From contig MNZB01000004.1 in the NCBI GenBank assembly GCA_001873435.1, positions 14,030 through 78,029 of the forward strand: DNA of 64,000 bases, in the 5' to 3' direction. The position numbers and the translations under genes were made by a program. Of the stretch, positions 4,285-52,509 are shown piece by piece. The stretch's first letter is position 1. Every line of letters begins with the position of its first letter. Source of the stretch: Candidatus Pacebacteria bacterium CG2_30_36_39 (GTDB taxonomy: Bacteria; Patescibacteriota; Microgenomatia; UBA1400; PJMF01). The notes beneath the pieces were generated by a model. That model did not search any database. It was not told the origin of the DNA and saw only the letters and a list, made by a program, of their open reading frames with translations.

Positions 4285-5034
4285 TTAAATAACTAATCTA
4301 GCAAATATTGGTAAGTGATCAGAAACATCTGTTTCAATTATTTTTATTTCTTCTACCACAATGTTTTTTGTGCCAAAAATATAATCAAGTCTCCAGTTGA
4401 GCTCATTTTCTGCAAAACCATCTTTATCAAAAGGCTTGGTGGTCCAAGTTTTCTCAGAAAAATCTGGACCAAGATGTTTTAAATTATTTAAATTATTTAT
4501 TGAATTTATCAAAAAAGAATCTGGAGCAGCATTGAGATCTCCTGTAAAAATAAAGCTTTGTTTTTTCTTTTTCAAAATTTCTAATAAATTATTTGCTTCA
4601 TTCTTTCGCTGTTCAGTCATTTCAAAAAAAGGCGTATAAGACAAATGAGTTGTGCTAAAAATAATTCGTTTCCCTTCTTTTTCAACTGTTAGTTCAACAT
4701 AAACCCTACCTTCTTCAGCTGCATTAACAGGATTAGTTTTGGGTGGTTGAATATATTCGAATCTCTTATTTACAATTGGTAGTTTGGAAAAAATAGCATT
4801 ACCCTGAGTTTCTTTTTCTGGTCTATTTGTCCAACTTTCTGAAACTTGAAAAAAATATTTATAGCTCAATTTATCAGCAATATATTTTGCAGTATCCAAT
4901 GGAGGTTGAAGTTTTGAATGCTGAATAAATTCCTGAGCACAAATTACATCAGGATTTAATTCTTTGATTAATTGAATAATTTTATCAGGGTCCTCTTTGT
5001 ACCAAACATTCCATTGTAAAAGCGATATTTGCAT
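4285..5034 (-). CDS. endonuclease/exonuclease/phosphatase (EEP) family protein
   Basis: N-terminal LQWNVW, DVICAQEF, internal TGDLNAAPDS and C-terminal SDHLPIFARL are EEP hallmarks. Confidence 0.8.
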   Translation of the reverse strand: MQISLLQWNVWYKEDPDKIIQLIKELNPDVICAQEFIQHSKLQPPLDTAKYIADKLSYKYFFQVSESWTNRPEKETQGNAIFSKLPIVNKRFEYIQPPKTNPVNAAEEGRVYVELTVEKEGKRIIFSTTHLSYTPFFEMTEQRKNEANNLLEILKKKKQSFIFTGDLNAAPDSFLINSINNLNNLKHLGPDFSEKTWTTKPFDKDGFAENELNWRLDYIFGTKNIVVEEIKIIETDVSDHLPIFARLVI

Positions 5035-5102: not shown

Positions 5103-6467
5103 TTACTCATCAATAACTGAAGTACTTATCTCTGGAAGTTGTAAAATATCAGCAAACATCTCATCCAAATACTCTCCTGTATGAGGATTTATTGCATTAT
5201 GCAATTCATTTTTAACTGTTTGCAACATTTCATTTGCCTCCACTGTTAAACCAGCATCTCGCAAATGCTCTAAAGCCTGCCTAACAAATAACATATTTAT
5301 TCTCCCAGAAGTACCTGGACTATCAAAAAAGGTGCCACAGCTAATCATTGCTGCCATAGCTGATGCCTTGGCAGCCAATAAAGAAGTTTCTGGATCACTA
5401 CTACCACCTTGATACATAAAAATATGTTCAAAATCATCAATTAACTTACTATTATAGTCATCTACTTCCATACTTATTATTCTCGTCATAACCTCATTTA
5501 ACTGACTTACTGCACTAGAAAAATTTGCTTTCCAACTACCATTGAAACCAGCATCACAAGGACAAGCACCATGCCACCTTATCAAATCTCCATGAGGACA
5601 ACTCCAAGCTGTTCTTTCCCGTAAATTACCTTCCAAAAAATCTCCTTCACCCCAGACACTCATTGCCTCATTAATACCCAACATTGCTACTCCAGCTTCT
5701 GGCAAAGCAGTCTCCATTAAATATCTCAAAAACATATCACCAAATTTAAAATGATGACCAAAAGTTTCTCCGTCCGTAAAAGCTATCATTGGCAAAGTGG
5801 CTGGTAAATTATCTAGTCTAGGAAATATCACTTCATCTGCAAACTGATTTGCATTTTCTTTTTTATGGTGAGCTAAAGCAGAAGAAACTGGTCGATCAAA
5901 AGCTAATAATAAAAACTGCTTACCATTGGGAAGAGGAATTTTCACTGGCCGATCATCAATCTCTTTATTGGGAACATCGATTTGTTCAGGAGCACATATT
6001 ACTCCGATATAACCAAATTCAGAAAGAACTTCTAATGTTTCCATATCCAAAGCCGTCTCTGGTGCCCAAAACCATTGTGGCAATTGCCCTGCTTGTTCAG
6101 CAAATAATTTTGCTCCAGCACCAATTAAAATCTGTTTGTCTCCATAAGAAAGATCTGGCAACAATACATGAAGATAGGGATCTCCAACTCCTCTTTCTTT
6201 CAAAGCTGATTCTAAATCAGGCAAAGATTCTGGAGATATATTTTCCATTTCTTTACGCATAGTCGCAAAGAAATCAAATGAAGAAAGCTCTAATAAGCCA
6301 GCTTGAATCTGTGGAACATAGCTTTCTCCAGCAATTACTCTATTCCAATCAACACCATATGGATCTGTCTGAATAGATTTAACCCGTTCGTGAGCTCCTT
6401 TTCTAGGAGGTTGATAAAAGTGCTCACCGAGAATCATGAAACGTTCTTGATTGTATCGAGCCATCAA
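5103..6467 (-). CDS. glycoside hydrolase family 57-like protein
   Basis: GEHFYQPPR (GH57 region I HQP-type), WAPETAL (WxPE nucleophile region) and TDGETFGHH (DGE acid/base region). Also a Cys cluster CPHGDLIRWHGACPC. Confidence 0.65.
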   Translation of the reverse strand: MMARYNQERFMILGEHFYQPPRKGAHERVKSIQTDPYGVDWNRVIAGESYVPQIQAGLLELSSFDFFATMRKEMENISPESLPDLESALKERGVGDPYLHVLLPDLSYGDKQILIGAGAKLFAEQAGQLPQWFWAPETALDMETLEVLSEFGYIGVICAPEQIDVPNKEIDDRPVKIPLPNGKQFLLLAFDRPVSSALAHHKKENANQFADEVIFPRLDNLPATLPMIAFTDGETFGHHFKFGDMFLRYLMETALPEAGVAMLGINEAMSVWGEGDFLEGNLRERTAWSCPHGDLIRWHGACPCDAGFNGSWKANFSSAVSQLNEVMTRIISMEVDDYNSKLIDDFEHIFMYQGGSSDPETSLLAAKASAMAAMISCGTFFDSPGTSGRINMLFVRQALEHLRDAGLTVEANEMLQTVKNELHNAINPHTGEYLDEMFADILQLPEISTSVIDE

Positions 6468-6506
6468 AAATCAAGCATATATTTATTTGAAACAATTTAA
6501 AAGAGG

Positions 6507-7778
6507 TTAATGCTTTAAAGCTTCTCTTTGTTCAATGCTGTGAAAAATTAAGATCACCAAAATCAAAGGAAAAAATGCCATTAAAGCAGTTTTATGTGAA
6601 CCAAAATTATCCAAAGCAAAACCAATAGCTGGAAACAATACAATAGAAATAATATTGCGCACAAGACTCTCCAAAGAACCAAGAGTAGCACGCATATTCT
6701 TTTGATAAAAATATTGTTTGAATGGACTCATGATTGGAGAAATTAATGAACTAAATGAGAAATAAACTACAAAAAATATTAAACCAGCAATAGGACCAGA
6801 AACAACAAATAAAGATGTTAAAACTAATAATCTAGCAACCATCATGATTTCCAAATATTTTTTTTCTGAAGAAAATTTCTTACTAAAATATTTAGGTACC
6901 AAACTAAAAACTGCCCCCATCAAAGAACCCAAGGCAACCATAATAGGTAAATTTCTTACATCCAATTTAAGATCCAATAAAAATGATTGATAAACTACAT
7001 CTGAAAAAAATAGGTTTACCACTTCACTAAAAATACCAACAAATAATAATTTTTTAACAACTGGATGAGAACTTGTATATTTAATTGCTTGTTTAGAAAT
7101 TTTAACTGTATCAGCAAAATTCTTTTTTAAAGAAAAAGTAACTTTTCTGGTTTTTTCTTTCAAACCAGAAAGAATCATGGCACCAACAAAATAACCCACA
7201 CAACCAGTTAACCACAAAAAATCTAAACCCTGGTGACTCTGACCAAAAACAAAATATTGAGTAGTAGCACCAACTAAGTACAAAAAGATAATTGCATTTA
7301 AATTTGAAAAAGCAGTAGCAAATTGATAAACAAACTCAAAGGTTGAATAAAACTTATTAATCAAATCTTCTCTTTTAGCTTTTTTGGCAATGTCGTAAGG
7401 TAAAGACTCAAAAGCTCCAGAACTAAATGTATAAGCAATTCCCTTTAAACTAAAAAGAAACCACATCATCCAAGGCTCAGTAATAAAGAAAAATAAGCCA
7501 AAAATTAAAGACTGCATCAACCAACTAACTTGAACAGATTTTCTTTTGCCATATAAATCTGCAAAAACTCCAGTTGGAATTTCTGCGATTAATAAAAATA
7601 ATGATTGCAAAGACAAACCAATACCAACCTGAGTTGCTGAAAAACCTTTGGCAAAAAAGAAGGCCATAATAACCATATCAATATCTGGAATAGAAACACC
7701 TGTTCCTAAACCTAAATAAATAGGGTTAAAAAGCTGCCATTCTTTTTGCTTAAAATAATTTTTTAGCTTCTTAAACAT
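6507..7778 (-). CDS. MFS-type transporter (host-like composition), last gene of the atypical operon
   Basis: About 12 hydrophobic segments. MFS loop motif GVFADLYGKRKS (GxxxDrxGrR-like). Only a 7-nt gap to the upstream gene. Confidence 0.65.
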   Translation of the reverse strand: MFKKLKNYFKQKEWQLFNPIYLGLGTGVSIPDIDMVIMAFFFAKGFSATQVGIGLSLQSLFLLIAEIPTGVFADLYGKRKSVQVSWLMQSLIFGLFFFITEPWMMWFLFSLKGIAYTFSSGAFESLPYDIAKKAKREDLINKFYSTFEFVYQFATAFSNLNAIIFLYLVGATTQYFVFGQSHQGLDFLWLTGCVGYFVGAMILSGLKEKTRKVTFSLKKNFADTVKISKQAIKYTSSHPVVKKLLFVGIFSEVVNLFFSDVVYQSFLLDLKLDVRNLPIMVALGSLMGAVFSLVPKYFSKKFSSEKKYLEIMMVARLLVLTSLFVVSGPIAGLIFFVVYFSFSSLISPIMSPFKQYFYQKNMRATLGSLESLVRNIISIVLFPAIGFALDNFGSHKTALMAFFPLILVILIFHSIEQREALKH

Positions 7779-7785
7779 AAGATTC

Positions 7786-8226
7786 TTATCTTACACAAAT
7801 TCGAGCAAAATGAATAATCATTTCCATTTCTTCAGTAAGCTCTAAGCCTTCTCTAGTTTTAACAGCAAATCTATCATCTTCGGCAACAATTGAAATAATT
7901 TCTAAAGTAGCAGTAGTGAAAAACTCACAACCAACTCCATTTACTAAGTATTCCAAAATATCCCAAAGTCTAATATTTCTCTTATCCCATTCCAAATCTT
8001 GGCCAGCCAAAAAATCTTCCTCTGCTAAAGCTAAAACATCTCTAGCTCCTTCACTTAATTGACCTGATTTGTTTTTTAACTGATAAATAATCAGCATGGC
8101 TGCAGCGCAACTAGCGGTATCAGTTGTGAGCATATGACCACATACATGATAAAGCAAATCGCAGTTACATTCCTCTGCTTGTTCTTCTGTTTCTAGAAGA
8201 TGTTTTGGTTTTTTTTCGTCAGACAT
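7786..8226 (-). CDS. hypothetical acidic Cys/His-containing protein
   Basis: 146 aa, acidic. EECNCDLLYHVCGHM could be a metal-binding cluster. Same strand and tight spacing with the operon genes. Confidence 0.4.
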   Translation of the reverse strand: MSDEKKPKHLLETEEQAEECNCDLLYHVCGHMLTTDTASCAAAMLIIYQLKNKSGQLSEGARDVLALAEEDFLAGQDLEWDKRNIRLWDILEYLVNGVGCEFFTTATLEIISIVAEDDRFAVKTREGLELTEEMEMIIHFARICVR

Positions 8227-8237
8227 AATATCCTTTA

Positions 8238-10151
8238 TTATTCTTTTTCTTGCTCATTAATAAAAAGTGCTACAGCACAGCTATCAGAATCAGCCGCTAA
8301 AGCCTGGGCACATAATTTTTCTAGTTCATTTAATTGAGAAGTTTGAATTCCTTCGTTTAATTCTTCGTCAGTAACATAAGTTGGAAAACTCATTGGTTCA
8401 GTTAGCATGAATCTTTCAGTATGAGTACTTTCGATTGGTTGAAAAATTTCTTCTGGACTTTGCAAATCTTTAAGCATTGCCTGCAAAATCTGCATCGGAC
8501 CTTCATGAGTAGAAACAACAACCTTCATTGATCTACCAGTCTCCTGATAAAACTGATTAACTGTTTCTAGTAAATCAATCATAAAAGACAAAGCTTTGAG
8601 ATGTACAAATGAGAAATTTTCACCACCAGCTATGGCATTAGAAAATGAATGCAAAACTTCTTCACCATATTCACTAGCTTTGTGTCCAACTCCAACTCCG
8701 AATGAACGCTCATTTAAACGCCAATCTCTAACAATAGCTGAAACTGGGAACGGCTCACCAATTGACCATAAAGCAACATCAATAGTTGCTAACGAAGAAG
8801 TTCTACCTGATGAAATTACTAAATCTGGAGCAGTAGTATCCCAAAGCTGAGTAGCAATATCATATGAACGTTGAGCACTTCTCTTGGCAATAGTGTCGTC
8901 AAGAATTCCATCGTTGGTATTAATTACACCAGGAAGTTTGCCAGCTCTTTGAGGAGTACTGTCGCCATTGCGAACTAAAAGCAAGTCCAAACCTGCTCCA
9001 TAATTCCAATTAGCTAATAATTCTTGATAACGAGTTCTAAGTTCATCAATACTTGGAATTAGTTCAAGAATTTCTGCTTTTTCTGGATTACTAGCAGTAA
9101 CAAAACTTGGTTCAGAAACTAATCTACCCAACTTACTAGGATCTCTTTGATTAACCCTATCTTTAACATATCCAGCTTGAGTTTCTTCATCCGCATTTTG
9201 AGCAGAAACAGAAACATCCTGAGTTAAACGATTGGTTTCCCAAAGTTTGAGAGCTCTTTTTTGATCTTCAGTTGGTTGATAATCTGGTTTTTCAACTGTA
9301 TGAGCACTCATAATACTTTCTACTTCGATACCATTTGGAAAAGAAAGTACACCAGTAGCATTAATAATAGGAGTAACCTCAGTTTGAAAATATCTAGTAC
9401 CATATTCTTGTGCCCAATAAAGCAAACCTGAAGTAAAAATTAAACGAGTGCCTGGTTTTAATTTGGCATCTTTATAAACTTCATGTTCAAGTAAAACTTT
9501 CTCTAGATCTTCACGCCAATTACGAGCTAATTTTTCGATTTCAGCTGGAAATGATTCCACACGACGAGCATCACCTGCTACATCATCAGCTTTAATACCT
9601 TCTATTTGAGCATTGAGTTGAGCACCATTAAAATCATCCCAGCCATCTATTTCAACCCACATGGGACTCATACCAGCAACTGGACCACTACCCCATACTT
9701 TGCCAGCTGGAGAAACATCTCTATTAGAAATGTCTTGATAAACTCCGGCGTGAGTGATTTTTATTCCACCATCTTCGGTAACTACAGCCATAATAGCTGT
9801 TTCACCTTCAATAGCGTATTTAACACCATGCAAAAGCTCTAAGTCGTTAAGATCTAGTCTTCCTTTTGAATTTGGTACTAATGACCAATCTGGAGGAAGT
9901 GGATCTTCATAATAGGTACCATCTGGAAGAGTTGTAGGAGCTGAATTCCATTTCAAAGTAAAAACATGATCTGGAGTCCATTCACTAAGAGGCATGACTT
10001 CTTTGATCTCGCCATCTTTTGCCACTGCAGCTACTAAGCCTTTTTGTCGCAACTCTGCTTCAAAAGCTCTTTTTTCTTCTTTGTTTGTCCAATCTACTCT
10101 TTCGAGAGAAAGATCAAATTCTTGACGTAATCTACTTATTTTTTCTGCCAT
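8238..10151 (-). CDS. hypothetical two-domain protein; C-terminal phosphoglycerate-mutase-like (histidine phosphatase superfamily) domain with RHG to RNG substitution
   Basis: C-terminal region aligns block by block with dPGM: LLLVRNGDSTPQ vs LVLVRHGESQWN, SSGRTSSLAT vs TSVLKRAIHT, PVSAIVRDWRLNERSFGVGVGHKASEYGEEV vs [33 protein letters not shown], and VVVSTHEG vs IIAAHGNS. The N-terminal 380 aa are unassigned. Confidence 0.55.
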   Translation of the reverse strand: MAEKISRLRQEFDLSLERVDWTNKEEKRAFEAELRQKGLVAAVAKDGEIKEVMPLSEWTPDHVFTLKWNSAPTTLPDGTYYEDPLPPDWSLVPNSKGRLDLNDLELLHGVKYAIEGETAIMAVVTEDGGIKITHAGVYQDISNRDVSPAGKVWGSGPVAGMSPMWVEIDGWDDFNGAQLNAQIEGIKADDVAGDARRVESFPAEIEKLARNWREDLEKVLLEHEVYKDAKLKPGTRLIFTSGLLYWAQEYGTRYFQTEVTPIINATGVLSFPNGIEVESIMSAHTVEKPDYQPTEDQKRALKLWETNRLTQDVSVSAQNADEETQAGYVKDRVNQRDPSKLGRLVSEPSFVTASNPEKAEILELIPSIDELRTRYQELLANWNYGAGLDLLLVRNGDSTPQRAGKLPGVINTNDGILDDTIAKRSAQRSYDIATQLWDTTAPDLVISSGRTSSLATIDVALWSIGEPFPVSAIVRDWRLNERSFGVGVGHKASEYGEEVLHSFSNAIAGGENFSFVHLKALSFMIDLLETVNQFYQETGRSMKVVVSTHEGPMQILQAMLKDLQSPEEIFQPIESTHTERFMLTEPMSFPTYVTDEELNEGIQTSQLNELEKLCAQALAADSDSCAVALFINEQEKE

Positions 10152-10152
10152 A

Positions 10153-11139
10153 TTATTTGCCCAATTTTTCAGCGTTTAAATTTGTAAAGTAGGTAAAATA
10201 ATCACCATCCAAAGGAGCATTGGTAGGAACAAAAGTTTCCTCAGTTCTAGCCACAGTCTTTCCAGGAATAACTGTCTCAACAACTTTATTTTCAGCTAAC
10301 TTCATTACACTTCTGGCAGTGAAACTTGGCATAATAGCTGGATCGATTGATCTAGCACCATCATCTTCAAGTAAAATTTGACCTGTTGATAATAAAAATG
10401 GCTTGCCTTCAACAATTCCTAGTTTGGCTAATTTTTCTGGAGAATAATTACCAACCCATTTGCCTAAGCGTTCACCCCAAAGCTTTAAAGAATTAACTTG
10501 AGCATTTGGAGTATGTAAAGCAACTTCACCTGTTTGGTCATAAACCCAATATTCCATTTCGATTTCGGCAATTTCTGACCAATCATTTACTTGAACCCAA
10601 GTAGTAGATAAACCAGAAGATCCTCCATTTTCAATACCACTAGTCCATGTTTTATATGTTCTGCCGGTATCATCTAAACGAGGAGTTCTATCACCAAAAT
10701 CAACCAAGGTACCAATATATAAAGGCTTCATTACTCCATTTTCTAGAACACCAACCACAGCTGCCTCAGCCTCTAAAACGTATTGTTTTTGACCCTCAAT
10801 CATACAAAGAGCTTCTGTTGAAGCAGTATCGTGAGCTTTTGGCAAAGGCTCGATATGAGGATTTGGTTTTGAAGTAGCAATATTAAAATGCATTAAATAT
10901 CCATGCTCTGGCAAAAATTCACCTCGAGTTTGATATTGCAAAGAATCATCACTACCTACCACCAAAACTATATCTAATGGCTTAAGCAACTCTTCTAATC
11001 TGCGATGTAAATCTGGTCTAGAAAATAGTTGAGTAGCTTTTAAATGAGATAAATCAATTTCTTTGGAAATTAAATCTATTCCAGATAATTTTTCATCTTT
11101 TTCTAGAAATTCTAAATCGATAATGATTGTTTCTTTCAT
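10153..11139 (-). CDS. hypothetical protein (acidic, Trp-rich)
   Basis: 328-aa ORF with a 1-nt gap to the downstream gene, in the operon. No recognisable motif. Confidence 0.45.
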   Translation of the reverse strand: MKETIIIDLEFLEKDEKLSGIDLISKEIDLSHLKATQLFSRPDLHRRLEELLKPLDIVLVVGSDDSLQYQTRGEFLPEHGYLMHFNIATSKPNPHIEPLPKAHDTASTEALCMIEGQKQYVLEAEAAVVGVLENGVMKPLYIGTLVDFGDRTPRLDDTGRTYKTWTSGIENGGSSGLSTTWVQVNDWSEIAEIEMEYWVYDQTGEVALHTPNAQVNSLKLWGERLGKWVGNYSPEKLAKLGIVEGKPFLLSTGQILLEDDGARSIDPAIMPSFTARSVMKLAENKVVETVIPGKTVARTEETFVPTNAPLDGDYFTYFTNLNAEKLGK

Positions 11140-11163
11140 ATAATCGTTCCTTTTAAGAATTCT

Positions 11164-12795
11164 TTAATGAGTTCCTGAGGCGACTCTTTGAGCGTGAACA
11201 GCCATTGTGTCGCTAGAATTTTGTAATGAACCAACTACGTTTACGTACTCTGGCAATCTCATTCCATCTCTGTGTCTATCAACATCGTGGAGAGTACCAA
11301 TAATACGACCACCTGGTTTAACTAACCTACTGGCTTCCTCAAAAATCTTACAAACTTGATGTCCACCTTCACAACAATCAGCAGCTGATGTTTGAACAAC
11401 TACCATGTCATAAAGTGGTTCTTCATAAAATTCACCAATTGGAATATTACCCAAGTCTTCAACGTTGCGGAAACGAACGTTCATAGCACGCATACCATTT
11501 AGAGCCTGCATGATGAAAGCTTGCTTACCTCTACCATGACTCATGATGTCAATACGACGAAGTGGATTTTTACCATCCTTGGCATTAGCAGCAGATAAAA
11601 TATTTGCTTCTTTATGACAACCAATGAATAAAACTCTTTGACGAGGATTTTCTCTTAGTTCGGCTAGAGCTTCAGCAATATTAGAGTCAGGAGTATGATC
11701 TTGTTTTCTCCATTCCTCATACTTTTCTTGGAAGAGAGATTCTACTTTATTCCAATCTAAAGATAGAACTTCAGCAGTATCTCTAATTCCTAAGGCACCT
11801 AAAACAAAAGCTTTTAATGGATAAAAGGTATTGTGACCAGCATCAGTCACTAAACTATAATCTCCAACCCAACTATTTACTTTAGCTTGAGCTGCAATTA
11901 CTGATCCCTCTCCAACATACATAGTTCTATAAAGAACTTTGGCTTCTTTAGCTACCCAAGCCCAATCACCAATAGTGACACCTGGGAAACTAGTATATTG
12001 ACGGACACGAGCAAGTTGAGAAGGTAGATCGGCTGGATGTTCTTGAGTAATAAAGTAGGCTTTTTGACCAACCCAAGCATTATCACCAATTTTTAAAGTT
12101 TCACCACCTTGTACGTTAAAGGCACCGCCAATACGAGCATAGCGACCAATAGAAACTCTAGGAATAGCACTCATTGGACCCATTGAAGAATCCATTTCTG
12201 GATGAGCAGAAGTGTTGTAACCAGAACTCTGAAAATGAGTAGGAAGAATAGCTTCAAAACCACGGCCAACATCAGTTGGAAGCATTTGTGAGCCACCTCT
12301 TAGCATATCAAAACTTAATGGATTGCCACTTGGACTAATTGTTTTTCCAGATTCTTCCAAAGGATGGACATGTAAAATAGGACCAGTAGTATCAATATAA
12401 AAATGTTCTTCTGGTAAGTTAAAAGCTGCTCTGAGTTCTCCGAGTTTTTCTTTCCAAAGAGCTGCCATGGCAATTTCATCGGTAAAGGTTTTAGCTTTGC
12501 TACCAATTTTCTTTAAATCAGCACAGATCATGGCCCAAGCATAGGCTGGGGTCATGTCACCCAAATGCAAAGCACCTTGAACAAACATTGCTACTTCAGC
12601 ATCAAATGGACGAGTGTATTCTGCCGGTTGATGCTCTTCAAAAACTACTGGTCTAGTAAGACCAAGTTCTTGAGCTAATTTCATTTGGTTGGAGGGATCA
12701 CGGTCGATAATTTGACCCGCAGGATTAATAGCCAGGACTTCACCTTGGCCTAATCGTCTATGAACTTCTTCTGTGTGTTCTGCCTTTTTTGCCAT
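11164..12795 (-). CDS. hypothetical multi-domain protein: N-terminal unknown domain, central left-handed beta-helix (hexapeptide-repeat) region, C-terminal class-I methyltransferase-like fold
   Basis: Hexapeptide-like periodicity in SIGRYARIGGAFNVQGGETLKIGDNAWVG...VTIGDWAWVAKEAKV...VGEGSVIAAQAKVN. The C-terminus has VLFIGCHKEA (degenerate motif I), YDMVVVQTSAAD (motif II-like) and LVKPGGRIIG (motif III). Start taken at ATG 12795 (MAKKAEH); the track starts at an upstream TTG. Confidence 0.5.
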   Translation of the reverse strand: MAKKAEHTEEVHRRLGQGEVLAINPAGQIIDRDPSNQMKLAQELGLTRPVVFEEHQPAEYTRPFDAEVAMFVQGALHLGDMTPAYAWAMICADLKKIGSKAKTFTDEIAMAALWKEKLGELRAAFNLPEEHFYIDTTGPILHVHPLEESGKTISPSGNPLSFDMLRGGSQMLPTDVGRGFEAILPTHFQSSGYNTSAHPEMDSSMGPMSAIPRVSIGRYARIGGAFNVQGGETLKIGDNAWVGQKAYFITQEHPADLPSQLARVRQYTSFPGVTIGDWAWVAKEAKVLYRTMYVGEGSVIAAQAKVNSWVGDYSLVTDAGHNTFYPLKAFVLGALGIRDTAEVLSLDWNKVESLFQEKYEEWRKQDHTPDSNIAEALAELRENPRQRVLFIGCHKEANILSAANAKDGKNPLRRIDIMSHGRGKQAFIMQALNGMRAMNVRFRNVEDLGNIPIGEFYEEPLYDMVVVQTSAADCCEGGHQVCKIFEEASRLVKPGGRIIGTLHDVDRHRDGMRLPEYVNVVGSLQNSSDTMAVHAQRVASGTH

Positions 12796-12853
12796 AATTC
12801 TCTCTTTTCTCCCCAATTAGTAATATTTGAGCAGTGCGAGAAGAAAAAAAAGG

Positions 12854-12898
12854 ATTATAGTCCTTTCATAATGAATTGTCAATACTTTATATAGGATA
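12854..12898 (-). promoter_or_regulatory. near-consensus sigma70 promoter (TTGACA-17-TATAAT) with upstream TATCCTATA element; drives the 11164..6507 operon
   Basis: Minus strand reads TATCCTATATAAAGTATTGACAattcattatgaaaggacTATAATcc. The -35 is at 12877..12882, the -10 at 12854..12859 and TATCCTATA at 12890..12898. Confidence 0.55.
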
Positions 12899-13233
12899 TA
12901 TATATTATCAATACCAGATCTGAAAAAAACATAAAAATAAATTATTACAAGATCTTTGAAAGACTAATAGTAATGTTTTTATTAAAATATAAGTCTATCA
13001 ATTATTTGTAAATAACAAAATAAAGGCCCATAATGAGAGTGTTAAATGTTTTCTACAGTAGCGTTCGCACTCGCTTATGGAATCATCTAACAAAATCCCT
13101 GCCTCATGGCAAGAAAGGAGACCATCATTGGAAAACTTCATTTGTCACCAATCTTTGCTTCTTGGTAATCCAAAACAAATCAATTCAGCATGCATGGGAG
13201 AGAACACAACGCCTCCCCCTATTTTCATATAAC

Positions 13234-14349
13234 TCAACTATTTATTATTTTTTCCCAACTATATTTTTCATTACCAAAATGCCCATAAACAGCAGTCTGC
13301 TTATAAATTGGTTGTTTTAAATTTAAATAATTAATTGTTCCAGCCACAGACAAATCAATTAGTTCTTTGGCAAATTTTTCTATTTTTTTATCACTAACTT
13401 TGGCTGTGCCAAAAGTCTCTATCTCCAACATAACTGGTTTTTGTGCTCCAATAAAATATGCCAAACGTACTTCAGCTTTTTTAGCTAAATTATTTCCAAC
13501 AATATTTTTAGCAATAAACCTAGCTGCATAAGCACCAGATCTATCAACTTTACTAGGATCTTTACCAGAAAATGCTCCCCCACCTACCCTGGCAAAACCA
13601 CCATATGTATCTACCACTATTTTTCTTCCAGTTACTCCAGTATCTGAGGCTGGACCACCTATATACCAAGCCCCAGTACCATTAACTACTAATTGATTTT
13701 TATTAATTGAAAAACCATAAAATTCTAATACTGGCAAAACTACTTGTTGATATAAATCATTTTTTACATCTACAAGTTTCATACTCTTTTGGTGCGGTAC
13801 AGCCAAAACTACTTGGACAATACCAACTGGTTTATCATTTTCATATTGAACACTAACTTGAGTTTTTCCATCTGGCCTAAGATATGAAAGTTGCTTACTT
13901 TCTCTAACACAATCTATTTTTTCAGCCAATTTATGTGCTAACTCTATTGGAAGTGGCATAAGATTTTTTGTGTCCTGACAAGCATAGCCAAACATCATTC
14001 CCTGATCTCCAGCTCCAGCACTATCAACTCCTATGGCAATTTCTGGAGACTGATTGTGAATATAGACATTTATTGGAGATAAATTAGTAAAACCAAGGAA
14101 CCACTTAGTAAATCCAAGTCTCTTGATTTCTTCTCTGGCAATTAATTCATAATTTGGTTTTTCACCAAGACAAGTAACTTCTCCAGCCATCACCACTTGA
14201 TTTGCTGTTACTAGGGTTTCTACAGCAACCCTTCCATTAGGATCCTGCTTAAGAACAGCATCAACTACTGCATCAGATATTTGATCACAGATCTTATCAG
14301 GGTGACCAGCACAGACTGATTCTGAAGTAAAAATATATGATTGTGGCAT
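13234..14349 (-). CDS. metK: S-adenosylmethionine synthetase
   Basis: GHPDKICDQISDAVVDA and other MetK blocks. Start taken at MPQSY (14349) because GAGGAG lies 9 nt upstream; the upstream in-frame Met at 14367 lies inside the RBS. Confidence 0.95.
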   Translation of the reverse strand: MPQSYIFTSESVCAGHPDKICDQISDAVVDAVLKQDPNGRVAVETLVTANQVVMAGEVTCLGEKPNYELIAREEIKRLGFTKWFLGFTNLSPINVYIHNQSPEIAIGVDSAGAGDQGMMFGYACQDTKNLMPLPIELAHKLAEKIDCVRESKQLSYLRPDGKTQVSVQYENDKPVGIVQVVLAVPHQKSMKLVDVKNDLYQQVVLPVLEFYGFSINKNQLVVNGTGAWYIGGPASDTGVTGRKIVVDTYGGFARVGGGAFSGKDPSKVDRSGAYAARFIAKNIVGNNLAKKAEVRLAYFIGAQKPVMLEIETFGTAKVSDKKIEKFAKELIDLSVAGTINYLNLKQPIYKQTAVYGHFGNEKYSWEKIINS

Positions 14350-14351
14350 AA

Positions 14352-14503
14352 AAAAAACTCCTCTCAATAATTAAGGAGGAGTTACTTATTTTTTTTGCCT
14401 ATTTCGGCCACATCATTCCCCCTTAAGCGAACTAGCACCGTATCCTTTGCCAAAAGGCTCGGTTGCTGGACAATGTATAAACATTGCCACTCTTGATGTT
14501 GAG
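14352..14503 (-). promoter_or_regulatory. SAM-I-clan (S-box-like, possibly SAM-I/IV variant) riboswitch leader with terminator hairpin overlapping the metK RBS and start codon
   Basis: Minus-strand RNA CUCAACAUCAAGAGUGGCAAUGUUUAUACAUUGUCCAGCAACCGAGCCUUUUGGCAAAGGAUACGGUGCUAGUUCGCUUAAGGGGGAAUGAUGUGG contains the S-box signatures AUCAAGAG, GCAACC and GGUGCUA plus a closing P1 (CAACAUC/GAUGUGG). It is followed by AACUCCUCC-uuaauuauuga-GAGGAGUU-UUUUUUUU(AUG). P2 is a simple hairpin without the classic GGAGGGA/GGCCC kink-turn, so the subtype is uncertain. Confidence 0.55.
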
Positions 14504-14538
14504 AAAAATTATATCAGACTAATATTTATTTGCACAGC

Positions 14539-30800: not shown

Positions 30801-32423
30801 ATGTTGCTTGATGCTTCTAATCTATCAAAATCAATTGGTGCAAAATATCTTTTTAAAGATATTTCATTTAGTATTACTCCTGGAAAGAAGGTTGCTTTAA
30901 TTGGTAGGAATGGGAATGGAAAGACTACTCTCCTGAAAATATTGAATAATGAAGATCATGATTTTGAGGGAAACATAATTACTGCCAAAGGGATTAGGAT
31001 TACTTTAACAAAGCAAGAACATATTCACAATTTAGATCAGTCTCCCCTTGATTATGTTATTAGTAGTGTCCCCAATTATTTTGAGTACAAAAAGATTATA
31101 GAGGACTATGAAAATGGTCTTGGCACAGATCTTAATAGGTATCTAAAAATATTGGAGTATTTTACAGAAAAAAAATTATTTAATCTTCCAGAGGCAGTGC
31201 TTAGTACTTTGTCTGACTTTAATATTCCACTTGAGTCTTCTCATCAGCCATTAGGGAATCTTTCTGGTGGTCAAAAACGATATGTGGAGATGACTCGCCT
31301 GATGTTCTCACAATCAGATTTGTTGTTGATTGATGAGCCTACCAATCATTTGGATTATCTTGGTAAGGAACGTTTCATTTCTTGGATGAGGGGTCTTAAG
31401 CAGACTGTTGTTGTTGTGACTCATGACAGGGATGTTCTTAGGTATGTTAATAAGATTTATGAGATAAAAGATAAGAGGCTTGAGACTTTTAATGGAAATT
31501 ACGATCACTATATTTCTAGGAATTCTTCAGAAACACTAAGTTCTGTTAAGGACTATACCAATCAGCTAAATCGGTTGAAGGAAGCAAAGAAAAAAGTGGA
31601 ATGGGGTTTGCAGATGCGTGCTAAAAGTAAGGCTTGGAAGACTCGCTACGATCATTGGTCGAAGGATTATGAAAAGATTAAGGCTGAGACTGTTAAACCT
31701 TCTTTTTGGATTGATCAGAGTTCTGTTGAGAATCTCGATAAAAAGGTTGTTGATTCTTATGATAAGTATAAGGAGAAGAATATTAAGATTAATATGGTTA
31801 CCCAGAGAGAGCGTGGTGCTGGGAGGTTGATGATTAGAGATTTGTCGTTGGGTTATGATAGGCCGATTTTTTCTGGTTTAAATTTTTCTTTAAGAGACAA
31901 TGATCGTGTTTTGATTAAGGGTGTGAATGGGGCTGGGAAAAGTTCTTTGGTTAAGACAATTTTGTCTTTAGCTAAAAATGAGGTGCCTGTGGCTAGTATT
32001 TTCCAAGGTCAGATTGTTCTTTCAGATCATGTTAGGATTGGTGAGTATCAGCAGGAGATAGATAAGAGATATTTGTCATTGCCTTTGGCAGAGGCTGTTA
32101 GATCTGCTTATCAAGAGAAAAATGTGTTGATAGCAGAGCAAGAAATAAAGAGTTTGTTGGCTCAGTATTTGTTTAATCCGACTTTGGATTCTCAGCAGTT
32201 GATAATGAATTTGTCTGGTGGGCAAAAGGCTCGTTTTCAAATAATTAAGATGTTGGTTGATAAGCCTAATTTATTGATTCTTGATGAGCCAACTAACCAT
32301 TTGGATTTGCCTTCTATTGAGGAGTTGGAGAATGCTTTGGTTAAGTTTGAAGGTTCTATTCTTTATATTTCGCATGATACTTATTTTATTAAAAAAATAG
32401 GCGGGAAGATGGTTGAGATATAG
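30801..32423 (+). CDS. ABC-F family ATPase (two tandem ABC domains, no transmembrane domain)
   Basis: Walker A GRNGNGKTT and GVNGAGKSS, signatures LSGGQKRYVE and LSGGQKARFQ, Walker B LLLIDEPTNHLD and LLILDEPTNHLD. Confidence 0.9.
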   Translation: MLLDASNLSKSIGAKYLFKDISFSITPGKKVALIGRNGNGKTTLLKILNNEDHDFEGNIITAKGIRITLTKQEHIHNLDQSPLDYVISSVPNYFEYKKIIEDYENGLGTDLNRYLKILEYFTEKKLFNLPEAVLSTLSDFNIPLESSHQPLGNLSGGQKRYVEMTRLMFSQSDLLLIDEPTNHLDYLGKERFISWMRGLKQTVVVVTHDRDVLRYVNKIYEIKDKRLETFNGNYDHYISRNSSETLSSVKDYTNQLNRLKEAKKKVEWGLQMRAKSKAWKTRYDHWSKDYEKIKAETVKPSFWIDQSSVENLDKKVVDSYDKYKEKNIKINMVTQRERGAGRLMIRDLSLGYDRPIFSGLNFSLRDNDRVLIKGVNGAGKSSLVKTILSLAKNEVPVASIFQGQIVLSDHVRIGEYQQEIDKRYLSLPLAEAVRSAYQEKNVLIAEQEIKSLLAQYLFNPTLDSQQLIMNLSGGQKARFQIIKMLVDKPNLLILDEPTNHLDLPSIEELENALVKFEGSILYISHDTYFIKKIGGKMVEI

Positions 32424-45433: not shown

Positions 45434-45535
45434 AACATCTCATTGTAGAACAATATTGAGTAAGTTTTGTAGGCTCATTTTATTTTACAAACCAAAAGAA
45501 ACAAAAATTATTAATAATTATTACCTTTGGTTTGT

Positions 45536-45556
45536 TGGGGCGGTCTAGGACCGCCC
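45536..45556 (-). terminator. perfect GC-rich palindrome GGGGCGGTC-TAG-GACCGCCCC downstream of the GC-rich lipoprotein gene (no U-tract)
   Basis: 9-bp perfect stem 28 nt past the stop of 45584..46414. Confidence 0.4.
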
Positions 45557-45583
45557 CAACATGGGTATAACAAGGTGAGAAAA

Positions 45584-46414
45584 TTACGGAGCAACAACGT
45601 TGCTGGCAACCAAGGTCCATCCCGTCGCGTTTGTATGGCGAAGAATGGTCCAGGCGCCGTTGTTCACATCGAAGAAAACGACGTAAACAACTTTGCAACC
45701 CTGAAGTCCGCAGTTGTACAAGTGGCTGTTCGCCGCTTGCTGATAGATGTACGGCTGATCCATGAAGCCGCCAGCATTCTCTTTGACCTGATATTGCGTC
45801 ACCGTGGTTGCGCCAGGGTGATATCTGGAGAAGTTAACATCCAGATTCAGGTCTCCGGGTCCAGAATTGCGACCGCGGAGATAGATTTGCCATTCCACAT
45901 CCGGCTGGGGATTGGCGACAATCGAGTAGTTGCCAAACTTCATGACAACTCCAGCAGTAGTAGTCAGCTGGTAACCGCCTTCGTGAACGAATTTGGTTGC
46001 GGTGGCATTTTCCAACGACTCTTGCGAGTCAGGAGAAATGAGAGCCGCACTCGGATTGGCTTTGCGTTCGGCTTCGGTTTCGACGCCGACGACGCCGGGT
46101 TTGCCGCAGAAATCTTTACCGCCGGGAAGTGTGCAGACGTTTTCGTTGAAAACGCCATCTGCCCAACGATAAGCGGTGACCTTATAAGGGGCACCTTTGA
46201 TTTCGTAGCTCGGAGGTTGGATCTTGGCATTGCTTTGAGAAGGGCTGTCGTTTGATGGACCGCCTTGACCGGTGGAAACCGATTGAGTCGGGGCTACCGC
46301 AGTCACAGCAGGCTGTTCGCCGCCAGACATGTGGAAGTTACCGATATCAATGTTCCAGGGAGCGCAAGCGCTCAAAAGCACGGTCAACAACACTAGGGTT
46401 AGGGTCTTTTTCAT
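45584..46414 (-). CDS. lipoprotein, compositionally atypical (high GC, E. coli-like codon usage), function unknown
   Basis: MKKTLTLVLLTVLLSAC lipobox. RBS AAGGAG. GC-rich codons (CTG, GCG, CCG). A plus-strand shadow ORF overlaps it. Confidence 0.6.
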   Translation of the reverse strand: MKKTLTLVLLTVLLSACAPWNIDIGNFHMSGGEQPAVTAVAPTQSVSTGQGGPSNDSPSQSNAKIQPPSYEIKGAPYKVTAYRWADGVFNENVCTLPGGKDFCGKPGVVGVETEAERKANPSAALISPDSQESLENATATKFVHEGGYQLTTTAGVVMKFGNYSIVANPQPDVEWQIYLRGRNSGPGDLNLDVNFSRYHPGATTVTQYQVKENAGGFMDQPYIYQQAANSHLYNCGLQGCKVVYVVFFDVNNGAWTILRHTNATGWTLVASNVVAP

Positions 46415-46772
46415 CTTTCGTTACTCCTTGAGAGGTTTGATAGCAGTTTCGCCGCTCTAGTCCACGCTGGACTAGAGTCAGTTCACGCAATTAAAAACCA
46501 TATAAAAAGTTTCTAATTGCGCGAACCGATGGCTCAACTTCAAACTTCAAAAGAAGTAAAATTTCTCACTTGTTAAAGAGCGACTGAATTAACAGTCACC
46601 GTTGCTAAAAAGTATTTCGCTTAGAACATTCGTAGTGAATGAGTAGCGAGCAAGCTCTTCAGCCAAAAATCTTTTTATAAAAAACAAGACTTTTGGCTAA
46701 AGATCTGAAAGCAAAAAATTATTTTAATTAACTAATACTCTTGGTATATATATGTTTTTTTACACCAGGCTT

Positions 46773-46813
46773 AAGTATAGCACTAAAAGACCATTTTGTC
46801 AATGTTATAGGAT
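46773..46813 (-). promoter_or_regulatory. sigma70 promoter TTGACA-17-TATACT with upstream TATCCTATA element (drives 45584..46414 through a ~350-nt structured leader)
   Basis: Minus strand TATCCTATAACATTGACAaaatggtcttttagtgcTATACTtaagcctgg. Confidence 0.55.
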
Positions 46814-46845
46814 ATATTTTGGCTTATTTTATAATTAAAAGTTTC

Positions 46846-46875
46846 AGATCCCTGCCCATGTAAATGGACAGGGAT
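46846..46875 (-). terminator. hairpin GATCCCTG-N14-CAGGGATC downstream of 46892..47320
   Basis: 8-bp stem 17 nt after the stop. On the minus strand it is followed by TGAAACTTTT. Confidence 0.4.
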
Positions 46876-46891
46876 CTTGGCCAATTACGGC

Positions 46892-47320: not shown

Positions 47321-47403
47321 TGTTGCTCCGTCACTCCATGAGATTTAGATCCGTCACAGCGCAAGCGCTGTAACGATCCCCCTTCTAGAGAAGTGACCTG
47401 GTA

Positions 47404-52435: not shown

Positions 52436-52509
52436 CGGAGAGTGGCGCAGATGGCTAGCGCGCGCGCATGGGGTGCGCGAGGTCGCAGGTTCGAGTCCTG
52501 TCTCTCCGA
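52436..52509 (+). tRNA. tRNA-Pro (anticodon GGG), C1:G72 acceptor, no encoded CCA
   Basis: CGGAGAG-TG-GCGC-AGATGGCTA-GCGC-G-CGCGC-ATGGGGT-GCGCG-AGGTC-GCAGG-TTCGAGT-CCTGT-CTCTCCG-A. Cloverleaf is consistent. Anticodon loop AUGGGGU. Confidence 0.85.

What the first reader, a model, noticed from the sequence alone, without database searches (positions are those of the whole stretch)
6507..12816. Five-gene operon of large acidic proteins of unknown function (550, 328, 637 and 146 aa, plus MFS transporter) with non-host composition
Genes at 11164..12795, 10153..11139, 8238..10151 and 7786..8226 are separated by 1 to 24 nt. They are visibly GC-richer than their neighbours and encode Asp/Glu/Trp-rich proteins, unlike the Lys/Ile/Asn-rich host proteome. 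No family could be assigned to whole proteins, only to sub-domains (see the separate findings). The gene order suggests an enzymatic pathway with a dedicated exporter or importer. This is the strongest candidate in the window for an undescribed system, possibly biosynthesis or modification of a phosphorylated small molecule.
Basis: partly seen in the sequence, partly recalled or inferred. Interest (0 to 1): 0.75.

Follow-up and report, generated by a model that had tools for sequence, protein, structure and literature searches.

The report
Rare orphan enzyme-plus-transporter operon
This is a real, self-contained five-gene operon found in only about ten uncultured groundwater-type bacteria; its "unknown" proteins are very divergent versions of known enzyme folds plus a membrane transporter, so it probably modifies and transports an unidentified small molecule.

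Summary
The five minus-strand genes exist as described: A 11164..12795, B 10153..11139, C 8238..10151, D 7786..8226 and the MFS gene E 6507..7778, with gaps of 1-24 nt. They sit behind a perfect TTGACA-17-TATAAT promoter. The order A-B-C-(D)-MFS recurs in every related contig with different flanks. B+C and C+D fusions occur, and the promoter travels with the genes, so this is one functional module and not a chimera.

The families are extremely rare: 8-10 clusters among 5.8 billion, and no distant relatives in an exhaustive HMMER search.

"Non-host composition" is not supported. GC is 0.35-0.40 against 0.354±0.038 for the other genes, and GC3 is below the host mean. The extra GC reflects acidic, K/I/N-poor proteins.

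Folds are assignable:
- The C-half of C is a histidine-phosphatase fold lacking the nucleophilic His.
- A combines an unknown N-domain, a LacA/Mat-like hexapeptide acyltransferase and a class I methyltransferase fold.
- D is a weakly conserved, dispensable adaptor.

Most likely this is a metal-dependent keto-acid-type conversion plus acetylation, coupled to dedicated transport. The substrate is unknown. The phosphorylated-metabolite idea is weakened.

The parts
12854..12882 (-). Promoter of the cassette: TTGACA, 17 nt, TATAAT (12 of 12 consensus positions), about 55 nt upstream of the ATG of A.
   Evidence: the only 12/12 site in 6300..13400; sequence. Both hexamers are conserved upstream of A in L005, L009, L011 and L013.
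12890..12896 (-). Invariant TCCTATA motif 7 nt upstream of the -35 box in the window (5-7 nt in the other loci). It may be a regulator or UP-type site.
   Evidence: Invariant columns T65-A71 in the alignment of five upstream regions. Its function was not tested.
11164..12795 (-). Gene A, 543 aa (550 aa from the alternative TTG at 12816), a three-part protein. Residue numbers below count from the TTG at 12816.
   Evidence: 10 homologue clusters at 47-77% identity and 101 invariant columns.
12262..12795 (-). A, N-terminal domain (residues 8-185). The fold is unassigned. It has highly conserved motifs (GDMTPAYAWAM, ILHVHP).
   Evidence: conservation. (helical model, pLDDT 60-85). No hit in Pfam, NCBIfam or PDB.
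11812..12261 (-). A, left-handed beta-helix (hexapeptide) acyltransferase domain of the LacA/Mat/WcaF/XAT type (residues ~186-335). His260 is invariant in the motif QEH(P)A.
   Evidence: NCBIfam WcaF family 3.7e-7, below its cut-off. Pfam Hexapep 7.7e-4, below its cut-off. PDB galactoside/maltose acetyltransferases at 1.8e-3, with H260 aligned to the His of ATHPLN. The AF2 model is unreliable here (pLDDT < 50).
11182..11664 (-). A, class I (Rossmann) methyltransferase-fold domain (residues ~385-545). Its glycine loop is atypical (VLFIGCHKEAN instead of GxGxG). Asp423 is invariant.
   Evidence: Foldseek against PDB: 458 hits at E<=1e-3. The 50 matches listed are almost all SAM methyltransferases (CbiT 3e05 3e-6, NodS 3ofj, DhpI, TehB). 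pLDDT is 73-88. Weak Methyltransf_11/31 hits occur in some members.
10153..11139 (-). Gene B, 328 aa, a divergent FAH-fold (fumarylacetoacetate hydrolase superfamily) protein. Invariant residues are E123, E125, D147 and K163; R151 is nearly invariant.
9267..10151 (-). Gene C, N-terminal half (residues 1-~295), a paralogue of B. It has the same FAH-type residue pattern: E115, E117, D140, R144, K151.
   Evidence: BLASTP of B vs C: 1e-10, 23% identity over 306 columns. Joint alignment. Motif positions.
8352..8996 (-). Gene C, C-terminal histidine-phosphatase-fold domain (residues ~386-600) lacking the nucleophilic His (VRNG instead of RHG).
   Evidence: NCBIfam phosphoglyceromutase 6.4e-4. The family profile hits genuine His_Phos_1 proteins at 4.5e-12 to 4.6e-4. 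The alignment with them shows RHG replaced by RNG/RSG/RNT in 8 of 8, the second His as H or Q, and the 'SPLxR' Arg not conserved.
8238..10151 (-). Gene C as a whole, 637 aa: FAH-like domain, ~90-aa linker, dead phosphatase-like domain and a short tail homologous to the start of D.
7786..8226 (-). Gene D, 146 aa, an acidic and weakly conserved protein. It is fused to the C-terminus of C in three homologues and absent in two loci, so it is probably a non-catalytic adaptor.
   Evidence: The tails of the fusions P0004, P0005 and P0007 align with D; BLASTP supports this for two of them, 36% and 27% identity. Only 5 columns are invariant and no Cys or His is conserved. D is absent in L008 and L017.
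6507..7778 (-). Gene E, 423 aa, an MFS transporter dedicated to the cassette.
   Evidence: Pfam MFS_1 9.2e-15, above its cut-off. It lies adjacent in every locus long enough to show it, and its identity falls in step with A-C (72%, 60% and 55% in L005, L006 and L008).

Best explanation
The cassette is a self-contained accessory operon with its own strong promoter. It encodes a cytoplasmic multi-enzyme assembly and a dedicated MFS transporter, and it acts on an unidentified small, probably carboxylated (2-oxo-acid or 1,3-dicarbonyl-like, possibly sugar-acid-derived) molecule.

Proposed steps:
1. B and the N-half of C are paralogous FAH-fold domains that pair with each other. Each uses a divalent metal held by Glu-x-Glu…Asp, plus a Lys, to bind and convert the keto-acid part of the substrate. 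The chemistry would be tautomerisation, (de)hydration, decarboxylation or C-C cleavage. The absence of an invariant His favours the hydratase/dehydratase/isomerase type.
2. A uses its LacA/Mat-like hexapeptide domain, with a conserved catalytic His, to transfer an acetyl or acyl group from acyl-CoA to a hydroxyl or amine of the same molecule. Its methyltransferase-fold domain either methylates the molecule or only binds a nucleotide-like ligand.
3. The phosphatase-fold domain of C and protein D are non-catalytic. They bind an anionic ligand or scaffold the complex.
4. The MFS protein moves the substrate or the product across the membrane. I favour export of a modified, neutralised compound (a detoxification/tailoring-and-efflux module) over uptake.

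What is shown and what is inferred:
- Shown: the genes, the operon, its conservation, the gene fusions, the rarity of the families, the fold assignments, and the loss of the phosphatase nucleophile.
- Inferred: the metal site, complex formation, the chemistry, the substrate class and the direction of transport.
For: Operon and module:
- Tight spacing and a perfect promoter.
- The promoter is conserved together with the genes.
- The order A-B-C-(D)-MFS recurs with different flanks: L005, L006/7, L008, L009/10, L011, L012, L013, L014, L016 and L017.
- The MFS protein co-diverges with A-C.

Physical association:
- P0008 is a B+C fusion. P0004, P0005 and P0007 are C+D fusions.

FAH fold:
- Foldseek gives 36 FAH-only hits at E<=1e-3.

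Proposed active site:
- E123, E125, D147 and K163 are invariant across both paralogues, and R151 is nearly so.
- Their order and spacing match YcgM (E70/E72/D101/R105/K122) and KdaD (E143/E145/residue 164/K182; PMC9795676).
- E-x-E and D sit on the two strands of one predicted hairpin, residues 120-133 and 136-148.

Acyltransferase: family-level hits with the catalytic His aligned and invariant.

Methyltransferase fold.

Dead phosphatase.

Export/detoxification leaning:
- The best MFS family matches are efflux types, HP1165, Tet(40) and MdtH at 1.8e-6 to 2e-4.
- Acetylation and methylation are tailoring or detoxifying reactions, not catabolic ones.
- Neighbours elsewhere are resistance-type genes: a Cu-ATPase operon in L005, L009 and L013, an aminoglycoside nucleotidyltransferase in L012, and TspO and EamA in L011.
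- The cassette contains no regulator gene and has a consensus promoter.
Against: - No sequence method links B or C to FAH. The profile against PDB finds nothing. hhalign against YcgM or a 5-sequence FAH alignment gives probability below 5%. The residue equivalences therefore rest on inspection plus a predicted model.
- B and C have no invariant His for the His/Glu-water dyad that C-C-cleaving FAH enzymes use (bioRxiv 10.1101/2023.06.26.546597).
- The AF2 model of A is poor over the hexapeptide part (pLDDT < 50).
- All hexapeptide hits are below curated cut-offs.
- The methyltransferase domain lacks the GxGxG loop, so SAM binding is doubtful.
- One domain is clearly dead, so others could be too.
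- MFS family matches are weak and include an importer, the D-galactonate transporter at 1e-4. The direction of transport is open.
- The neighbourhood argument is circumstantial.
- No substrate is identified.
Confidence: 0.45

Rival explanations
1. Biosynthetic cluster. B/C build or rearrange a keto-acid scaffold, A tailors it by acetylation and methylation, and the MFS protein secretes the product (a signal, antimicrobial or symbiosis factor of these episymbiotic bacteria).
For: The enzyme set is the same as in the best explanation. Acetyl and methyl tailoring plus a dedicated exporter is a classical cluster layout. The top structural matches for the methyltransferase domain include natural-product and Nod-factor tailoring enzymes: NodS, DhpI, CcbJ, CalS10 and TylM1. 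The cassette is rare and patchy, as specialised metabolism tends to be.
Against: There is no core scaffold-forming enzyme: no synthase, ligase, NRPS, PKS or glycosyltransferase. There is no regulator gene. FAH enzymes are overwhelmingly catabolic or repair enzymes (PMC9795676). The promoter is a plain consensus one.
Confidence: 0.2
2. Uptake-and-catabolism module for a host- or environment-derived sugar acid or organic acid. The MFS protein imports it and B/C dehydrate or cleave it, as in the Weimberg-type 2-keto-3-deoxy-acid step. A plays a LacA-like safety-valve role, acetylating non-metabolisable analogues.
For: [quoted passage not shown] The closest solved relatives of A's hexapeptide domain are galactoside/maltose acetyltransferases. 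The MFS protein has a weak hit to the D-galactonate transporter. The lac operon also pairs an MFS permease with a hexapeptide transacetylase (textbook knowledge).
Against: No conserved neighbour feeds the product into central metabolism: there is no dehydrogenase, aldolase or kinase. A is the largest and best conserved protein, which is odd for an accessory safety valve. The methyltransferase fold is not expected in catabolism. Efflux-type MFS matches score better than the importer match.
Confidence: 0.15
3. One reading: a pathway that makes or modifies a phosphorylated small molecule, with the phosphoglycerate-mutase-like domain of C as an active phosphatase or mutase.
For: C contains a genuine histidine-phosphatase-fold domain. 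The conserved Arg of the R-x-G motif and the Glu of NERSFG could still bind a phosphate group.
Against: The nucleophilic His is Asn or Ser in all 8 homologues. The second His is Gln in 3 of 8. The Arg that follows the SPL stretch in ordinary family members is missing or shifted. Established knowledge of this superfamily says catalysis needs a phospho-His intermediate on the RHG histidine. No kinase or other phospho-transfer enzyme is present in the cassette.
Confidence: 0.08
4. Cell-envelope glycan modification. A O-acetylates and methylates a surface polysaccharide or lipid-linked sugar, and the MFS protein acts as a flippase or exporter.
For: The top NCBIfam hits of A are exopolysaccharide O-acetyltransferases: WcaF, HpsU and WbbJ. 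In this genome a GH57-like gene follows with no terminator between. From memory only, the mycobacterial methylglucose-lipopolysaccharide locus also combines a hexapeptide acetyltransferase, methyltransferases and a GH57 enzyme. This was not tested.
Against: GH57 is not linked to the cassette in any other locus. There is no glycosyltransferase, no polymerase, and no signal peptide or membrane anchor in A-D. The two FAH-fold proteins have no role in such pathways.
Confidence: 0.07

Closest known systems
Fumarylacetoacetate hydrolase (FAH) superfamily: KdaD (2q18), HpcE, FAHD1/YcgM, fumarylpyruvate and maleylpyruvate hydrolases, YisK
   Different: Sequence methods detect no similarity (9-15% identity). 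No invariant His exists for the His/Glu-water dyad. The two paralogues are always encoded side by side or fused, which suggests an obligate heteromer, whereas known members are homo-oligomers. One paralogue carries a dead phosphatase domain, an architecture not found elsewhere in 1.84 billion representatives.
LacA / Mat / WcaF-type and XAT (CatB, Vat) hexapeptide acyltransferases
   Same: The same repeat region is present, and the His-containing loop (QEHPAD vs ATHPLN) aligns with the catalytic His. The matches are consistent at family level.
   Different: All scores are below curated cut-offs. The domain is embedded between a ~180-aa unknown N-domain and a methyltransferase-fold domain, whereas known members are ~180-220-aa single-domain trimers. 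The AF2 model did not form a confident beta-helix.
Class I SAM-dependent methyltransferases (CbiT, NodS, TehB, DhpI)
   Same: The C-terminus of A has the Rossmann-type methyltransferase fold (Foldseek 3e-6, probability 1.0). An acidic residue (D423) ends the second strand, and there is an LVKPGG-type motif.
   Different: Motif I lacks the glycine-rich GxGxG loop and its preceding acidic residue (VLFIGCHKEAN). SAM binding is unproven.
Histidine phosphatase superfamily, branch 1 (dPGM, PhoE/GpmB)
   Same: The fold-level sequence signature is present: the Arg-x-Gly N-terminal motif, the Glu of the NERSFG motif, the hEGP motif, and a C-terminal W/F-P tail shared with the nearest ordinary relatives P0028-P0032.
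   Different: The phospho-accepting His is replaced by Asn or Ser in every member, and other catalytic residues are eroded. This predicts a pseudo-enzyme or binding domain.
lac-operon logic (LacY MFS permease plus LacA hexapeptide transacetylase next to a hydrolase)
   Same: An MFS transporter, a LacA-like acyltransferase and hydrolase/lyase-type enzymes are transcribed together.
   Different: There is no homology between the hydrolytic components. The substrate is unknown and the transport direction is unknown. This is an analogy only.

Membership tests
FAH superfamily (B and the N-half of C) | Mixed beta-sandwich roll FAH-domain fold | tested here: met
FAH superfamily (B and the N-half of C) | Sequence match to the family profile (Pfam FAA_hydrolase) or to solved members | tested here: not met
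   No Pfam hit at E<=0.1 for any of the 17 members. The profile against PDB finds nothing. hhalign probability is below 5%.
FAH superfamily (B and the N-half of C) | Three acidic metal ligands (Glu-x-Glu plus Asp/Glu) and a catalytic Lys | tested here: inconclusive
   E123, E125, D147 and K163 are invariant in both paralogues. Their order and spacing match KdaD and YcgM, and they lie on one predicted hairpin. However, no residue-level structural superposition was available, and the only profile alignment placing D147/R151 on YcgM D101/R105 is not significant.
FAH superfamily, C-C-cleaving subgroup | His/Glu-water catalytic dyad | tested here: not met
   No invariant or nearly invariant His occurs in the B/C alignment. 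The dyad is described in bioRxiv 10.1101/2023.06.26.546597.
Hexapeptide (LbH) acyltransferases, LacA/Mat/XAT type (A, residues 186-335) | Hexapeptide repeats recognised by family models at curated cut-off | tested here: not met
   Pfam Hexapep scores 19.5 bits against a cut-off of 27. NCBIfam WcaF family scores 30 bits against a cut-off of 192. The hits are significant by E-value (3.7e-7) but below the cut-offs.
Hexapeptide (LbH) acyltransferases, LacA/Mat/XAT type (A, residues 186-335) | Catalytic His in the loop after the repeat core | tested here: met
   H260 aligns with the His of ATHPLN in 3ftt and 3v4e and is invariant in 10 of 10 homologues.
Hexapeptide (LbH) acyltransferases, LacA/Mat/XAT type (A, residues 186-335) | Left-handed beta-helix fold, trimeric, acyl-CoA-dependent transfer | tested here: inconclusive
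   The AF2 model has pLDDT < 50 across residues 167-336. Oligomeric state and activity cannot be tested with these tools.
Class I SAM methyltransferases (A, residues 385-545) | Rossmann-like seven-strand methyltransferase fold | tested here: met
   Foldseek PDB top hits at 3e-6, probability 1.0. There are 458 hits at E<=1e-3, and the 50 listed are almost all SAM methyltransferases. pLDDT is 73-88.
Class I SAM methyltransferases (A, residues 385-545) | Motif I glycine-rich loop (E/D-x-G-x-G-x-G) that binds SAM | tested here: not met
   The aligned stretch is VLFIG(C/S/A)(H/K/N/R/E)… and only the first Gly (G399) is conserved.
Histidine phosphatase superfamily branch 1 (C, residues 386-600) | Homology to His_Phos_1 | tested here: met
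   NCBIfam PGM 6.4e-4. Pfam His_Phos_1 hits 4 of 8 C homologues, best 9.6e-4. The family profile retrieves genuine His_Phos_1 proteins at 4.5e-12. The alignment is clean.
Histidine phosphatase superfamily branch 1 (C, residues 386-600) | RHG motif with the phospho-accepting His | tested here: not met
   The motif is RNG, RSG or RNT in all 8 homologues, while the five ordinary relatives with this region keep R-H.
Major facilitator superfamily (E) | Match to MFS_1 above the gathering score over ~12 TM segments | tested here: met
   PF07690 scores 54.8 bits against a cut-off of 33.4, over residues 35-380. Subfamily and transport direction are not resolved.
Known anti-phage defence systems | Any PADLOC model hit | tested here: not met
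   0 hits for A-E at E<=0.1.

The most novel reading that the evidence does not exclude
The cassette encodes a previously undescribed enzyme complex. Its catalytic core would be an obligate heteromer of two deeply divergent FAH-fold paralogues, scaffolded by a dead histidine-phosphatase domain and protein D. This core would work with a unique three-domain acyltransferase/methyltransferase-fold protein. The complex would make or neutralise a metabolite not yet known from Candidate Phyla Radiation bacteria, which a private MFS transporter then moves across the membrane. That would be a new small-molecule pathway (a resistance or interaction factor) confined to a handful of episymbiotic lineages.
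Probability: 0.3. Interest if true: 0.6.

Novelty: new variant of a known kind. Interest (0 to 1): 0.42.

Why it matters
Candidate Phyla Radiation bacteria have tiny genomes and few recognisable accessory pathways, and most of their genes of unknown function remain unclassified. This work turns four "no family" proteins into testable enzymes: two metal-dependent FAH-fold domains, an acyltransferase, a methyltransferase-fold domain and a pseudo-phosphatase. It also shows they form one conserved, promoter-equipped module with its own transporter.

If the chemistry is worked out, it would add a new branch to the FAH superfamily, one invisible to sequence profiles. It would also provide a clear example of a histidine-phosphatase pseudo-enzyme, and possibly a metabolite or resistance trait relevant to how these episymbionts deal with hosts or toxic compounds.

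The significance is limited by the cassette's extreme rarity (about ten lineages in 15 billion proteins) and by the unknown substrate.

Tried and rejected
1. Foreign-island reading. GC3 and total GC are host-like. There are no flanking direct or inverted repeats. No integrase lies nearby: the only recombinase in the window is 40 kb away. B has no hits in plasmids or phages, and A has none in IMG/VR. Rejected as a recent transfer. The different flanks in relatives show it has moved over longer time.
2. Assembly chimera. Rejected, because the locus is identical in independent assemblies.
3. Sequence-level proof of FAH membership. This failed with the profile against PDB, hhalign against YcgM, and hhalign in global and local mode against a 5-sequence FAH alignment.
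4. A sixth conserved gene. The 289-aa and 298-aa genes upstream of A in L006 and L008 are unrelated to each other and to window genes. GH57 and the EEP nuclease are not linked elsewhere.
5. A riboswitch or leader that might reveal the ligand. Rfam finds nothing in the A leader. The only riboswitch is the SAM-I/IV element belonging to metK upstream, and the predicted 5' UTR is only ~55 nt.
6. Anti-phage defence. No PADLOC hit.
7. A metal- or redox-binding role for D through its Cys residues. The Cys residues are not conserved, and the FrhG hit is spurious.
8. Widening the family. A pattern scan of metagenome contigs found nothing new. A genome scan of 185,579 species gave only 2 loci.
9. The AFDB fold library was not available.
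10. Literature searches for this gene combination returned nothing relevant.
11. The 'Pseudomonadales' and 'Gammaproteobacteria' labels on L013 and L014. For L013 the label is doubted, because it shares 62-74% identical orthologues with the window outside the cassette. The window organism has RNase Y and a Firmicutes-type RpoD.

Full report
**Observation**

The window carries, on the minus strand, ORFs at 11164..12816 (A), 10153..11139 (B), 8238..10151 (C), 7786..8226 (D) and 6507..7778 (E).
- A has an internal ATG at 12795. This is the likely start: GGGGAG precedes it and all homologues begin at the equivalent Met.
- The gaps are 24, 1, 11 and 7 nt.
- A perfect sigma-70 consensus promoter (TTGACA, 17 nt, TATAAT) lies at 12882..12854 on the same strand. 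It is the only 12/12 match in the region.
- A terminator-like hairpin at 13115..13096 follows the upstream metK gene, and metK has its own SAM-I/IV riboswitch. The cassette is therefore its own transcription unit.
- No terminator-like site lies between the MFS stop codon and the end of the EEP gene at 4285. In this genome, read-through into the GH57-like and EEP genes is possible.

**Composition**

The "non-host composition" claim does not hold.
- The four genes have GC 0.349-0.401, against 0.354 ± 0.038 for the other 44 genes of at least 150 aa.
- GC3 is 0.17-0.22, below the window mean of 0.25.
- The excess is at first codon positions (0.525 vs 0.469).
- It reflects protein composition. B, C and D are acidic (pI 4.5-4.8) and all four are poor in K+I+N (ranks 41-46 of 49).
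- Trp is only marginally raised.

**Source and reality of the locus**

The exact C protein lies on contigs from independent ENA, JGI and NCBI assemblies with identical neighbours. One is GCA_002772855.1, named Candidatus Pacebacteria bacterium, from groundwater. This excludes a chimera. RNase Y and a Firmicutes-type RpoD in the window fit a non-proteobacterial, CPR-type organism.

**Rarity**

- Word-indexed searches of 5.8 billion cluster representatives find 8 clusters for C, 10 for A and 9 for B.
- An exhaustive HMMER search of 1.84 billion 50%-identity representatives with a B+C profile finds only three family representatives. It also finds five weak hits that are ordinary His_Phos_1 proteins.
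- A scan of one genome per 185,579 species finds two loci.
- Nothing is found in plasmids, phages or IMG/VR.

**Conserved module**

- Every related contig long enough to show it carries A-B-C-(D)-MFS in the same order. These are L005, L006/7/14, L008, L009/10/13, L011, L012, L016 and L017.
- The flanks differ. A copper-resistance operon and NUDIX flank it in L005, L009 and L013. An aminoglycoside nucleotidyltransferase is nearby in L012, and TspO and EamA in L011.
- The MFS protein diverges in step with A-C: 72%, 60% and 55% identity in L005, L006 and L008. GH57 and EEP are not linked elsewhere.
- The promoter, with an invariant TCCTATA just upstream of the -35 box, is conserved in L005, L009, L011 and L013.
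- L005 and L013 share other orthologues with the window at 61-80% identity. They are relatives in which the cassette sits at another position. Other carriers have 37-44% GC.
- No repeats or integrase mark the borders.

**Fusions**

- P0008 (885 aa) is B fused to C.
- P0004, P0005 and P0007 (719-740 aa) are C fused to D.
- D is absent in L008 and L017. It has only five invariant columns and no conserved Cys or His.
- B, C and D therefore very probably act together physically, and D is dispensable.

**What the proteins are: B and C**

B and the first ~300 residues of C are paralogues (BLASTP 1e-10).
- An AlphaFold2 model of B has pLDDT 77.5 and pTM 0.82.
- Foldseek independently gives 36 hits at E<=1e-3, all FAH, followed by E 0.046.
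- Sequence methods do not see this relationship.

The columns invariant across both paralogues include E123, E125, D147 and K163, and R151 is nearly invariant.
- Their order and spacing match the FAH metal ligands and catalytic Lys. KdaD has E143/E145/residue 164/K182 (PMC9795676). YcgM has E70/E72/D101/R105/K122.
- E-x-E and D lie on the two strands of one predicted hairpin.
- The C paralogue reads D-[IMV]-S-[ND]-R-D, much like the DLTLRD and DMTARD stretches of YcgM and FAHD1 seen.
- This equivalence is an inference. The only profile alignment that reproduces it is not significant.
- No invariant His exists for the His/Glu-water dyad of C-C-cleaving members.

**C-terminal half of C**

It aligns cleanly with genuine His_Phos_1 proteins. 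However:
- the RHG histidine is Asn or Ser in all eight homologues;
- the second His is Gln in three;
- the Arg that follows the SPL stretch in ordinary members is not conserved.

By the established mechanism of this superfamily (a phospho-His intermediate), it cannot be a conventional phosphatase or mutase.

**Protein A**

A has three parts.
- Residues ~186-335 match LacA/Mat/WcaF/XAT-type hexapeptide acyltransferases: NCBIfam 3.7e-7 and PDB 1.8e-3, all below curated cut-offs. The catalytic His is aligned and invariant.
- Residues ~385-545 adopt a class I methyltransferase fold: Foldseek 3e-6, with 458 hits at E<=1e-3, and the 50 listed are almost all SAM methyltransferases. This domain lacks the GxGxG loop.
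- The first ~180 residues are conserved but unassigned.
- The AF2 model of A is poor in the hexapeptide part.

**Protein E**

E is an MFS_1 transporter. Its weak best matches are to efflux families, and a weaker one is to the D-galactonate importer.

**Mechanism**

The most economical reading is a cytoplasmic complex comprising a B/C FAH-type heteromer, D and possibly A.
- It binds a keto-acid-like small molecule at two metal centres and converts it.
- A acetylates it and perhaps methylates it.
- The dedicated MFS protein moves the substrate or the product.

I lean towards modification and export, for four reasons:
- the reactions are of the tailoring type;
- the MFS matches are efflux-like;
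- the neighbours in other genomes are resistance-type genes;
- the promoter is a consensus one and the cassette has no regulator.

All of this is circumstantial. Biosynthesis of a secreted metabolite and import with catabolism of a sugar acid remain live rivals. The phosphorylated-metabolite idea is weakened by the dead phosphatase domain. No PADLOC defence model matches.

**Comparison and novelty**

Each domain belongs, at fold level, to a known superfamily, but several things are undescribed:
- the FAH-fold family is invisible to sequence profiles;
- it always occurs as a pair of paralogues;
- one paralogue is fused to a pseudo-phosphatase;
- the acyltransferase is embedded in a unique three-domain protein.

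No paper was found for this combination. I rate it a new variant of a known kind, namely a small-molecule-modifying operon with a private MFS transporter. Interest is moderate. The anatomy is now clear and testable, but the substrate is unknown and the distribution is very narrow.

Noticed in passing
window 45550..46450 and 46800..47400: Two GC-rich islands (52-55% and 45-49% GC) sit in a ~35% GC genome. They are covered only by overlapping mechanical ORFs on both strands (45527..46255 +, 45584..46414 -). No Rfam family matches at E<=0.1 apart from a chance miRNA hit. They could be a large structured non-coding RNA or foreign DNA.
   Followed up: partly
window 14381..14504 (-): A SAM-I/IV riboswitch (54.5 bits, above the gathering score) lies directly upstream of metK (13234..14367, -). 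A terminator-like hairpin at 13115..13096 separates metK from the cassette.
   Followed up: partly
window 52436..54143: A large serine recombinase (562 aa, XisF/Ccr-like, 3.6e-23) at 52455..54143 (-) overlaps a tRNA gene at 52436..52509 (+). This may be the edge of an integrated element.
   Followed up: no
window 30801..32423 (+): An ABC-F protein best matches the ribosomal-protection-like ABC-F family (3.6e-101, slightly below the cut-off).
   Followed up: no
window 12890..12896 (-); L005, L009, L011 and L013 upstream of gene A: An invariant TCCTATA motif lies 5-7 nt upstream of the conserved -35 box of the cassette promoter in all five loci, although the surrounding sequence has diverged. 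It may be a binding site for an unknown regulator.
   Followed up: partly
L013 (CAYSQA010000002.1) and L014 (CAZYTL010000025.1): These MAG contigs are labelled 'uncultured Pseudomonadales' and 'uncultured Gammaproteobacteria'. L013 shares non-cassette orthologues with the window at 62-74% identity. The window organism has RNase Y and a Firmicutes-type RpoD. The public taxonomic label of at least L013 looks wrong.
   Followed up: partly
window 5103..6467 (-) and 4285..5034 (-): A divergent GH57-like protein (Pfam 5.4e-9) and an EEP-family nuclease/phosphatase follow the cassette on the same strand with no terminator-like site between them. They are absent from the cassette's neighbourhood in all other genomes.
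   Followed up: yes
P0028-P0032 (database proteins, not in the window): These five proteins form a small group of ordinary His_Phos_1 proteins with an intact RH motif. They share with the dead domain of C an N-terminal helix and a C-terminal W/F-P tail, and are probably the active ancestors of that domain.
   Followed up: partly
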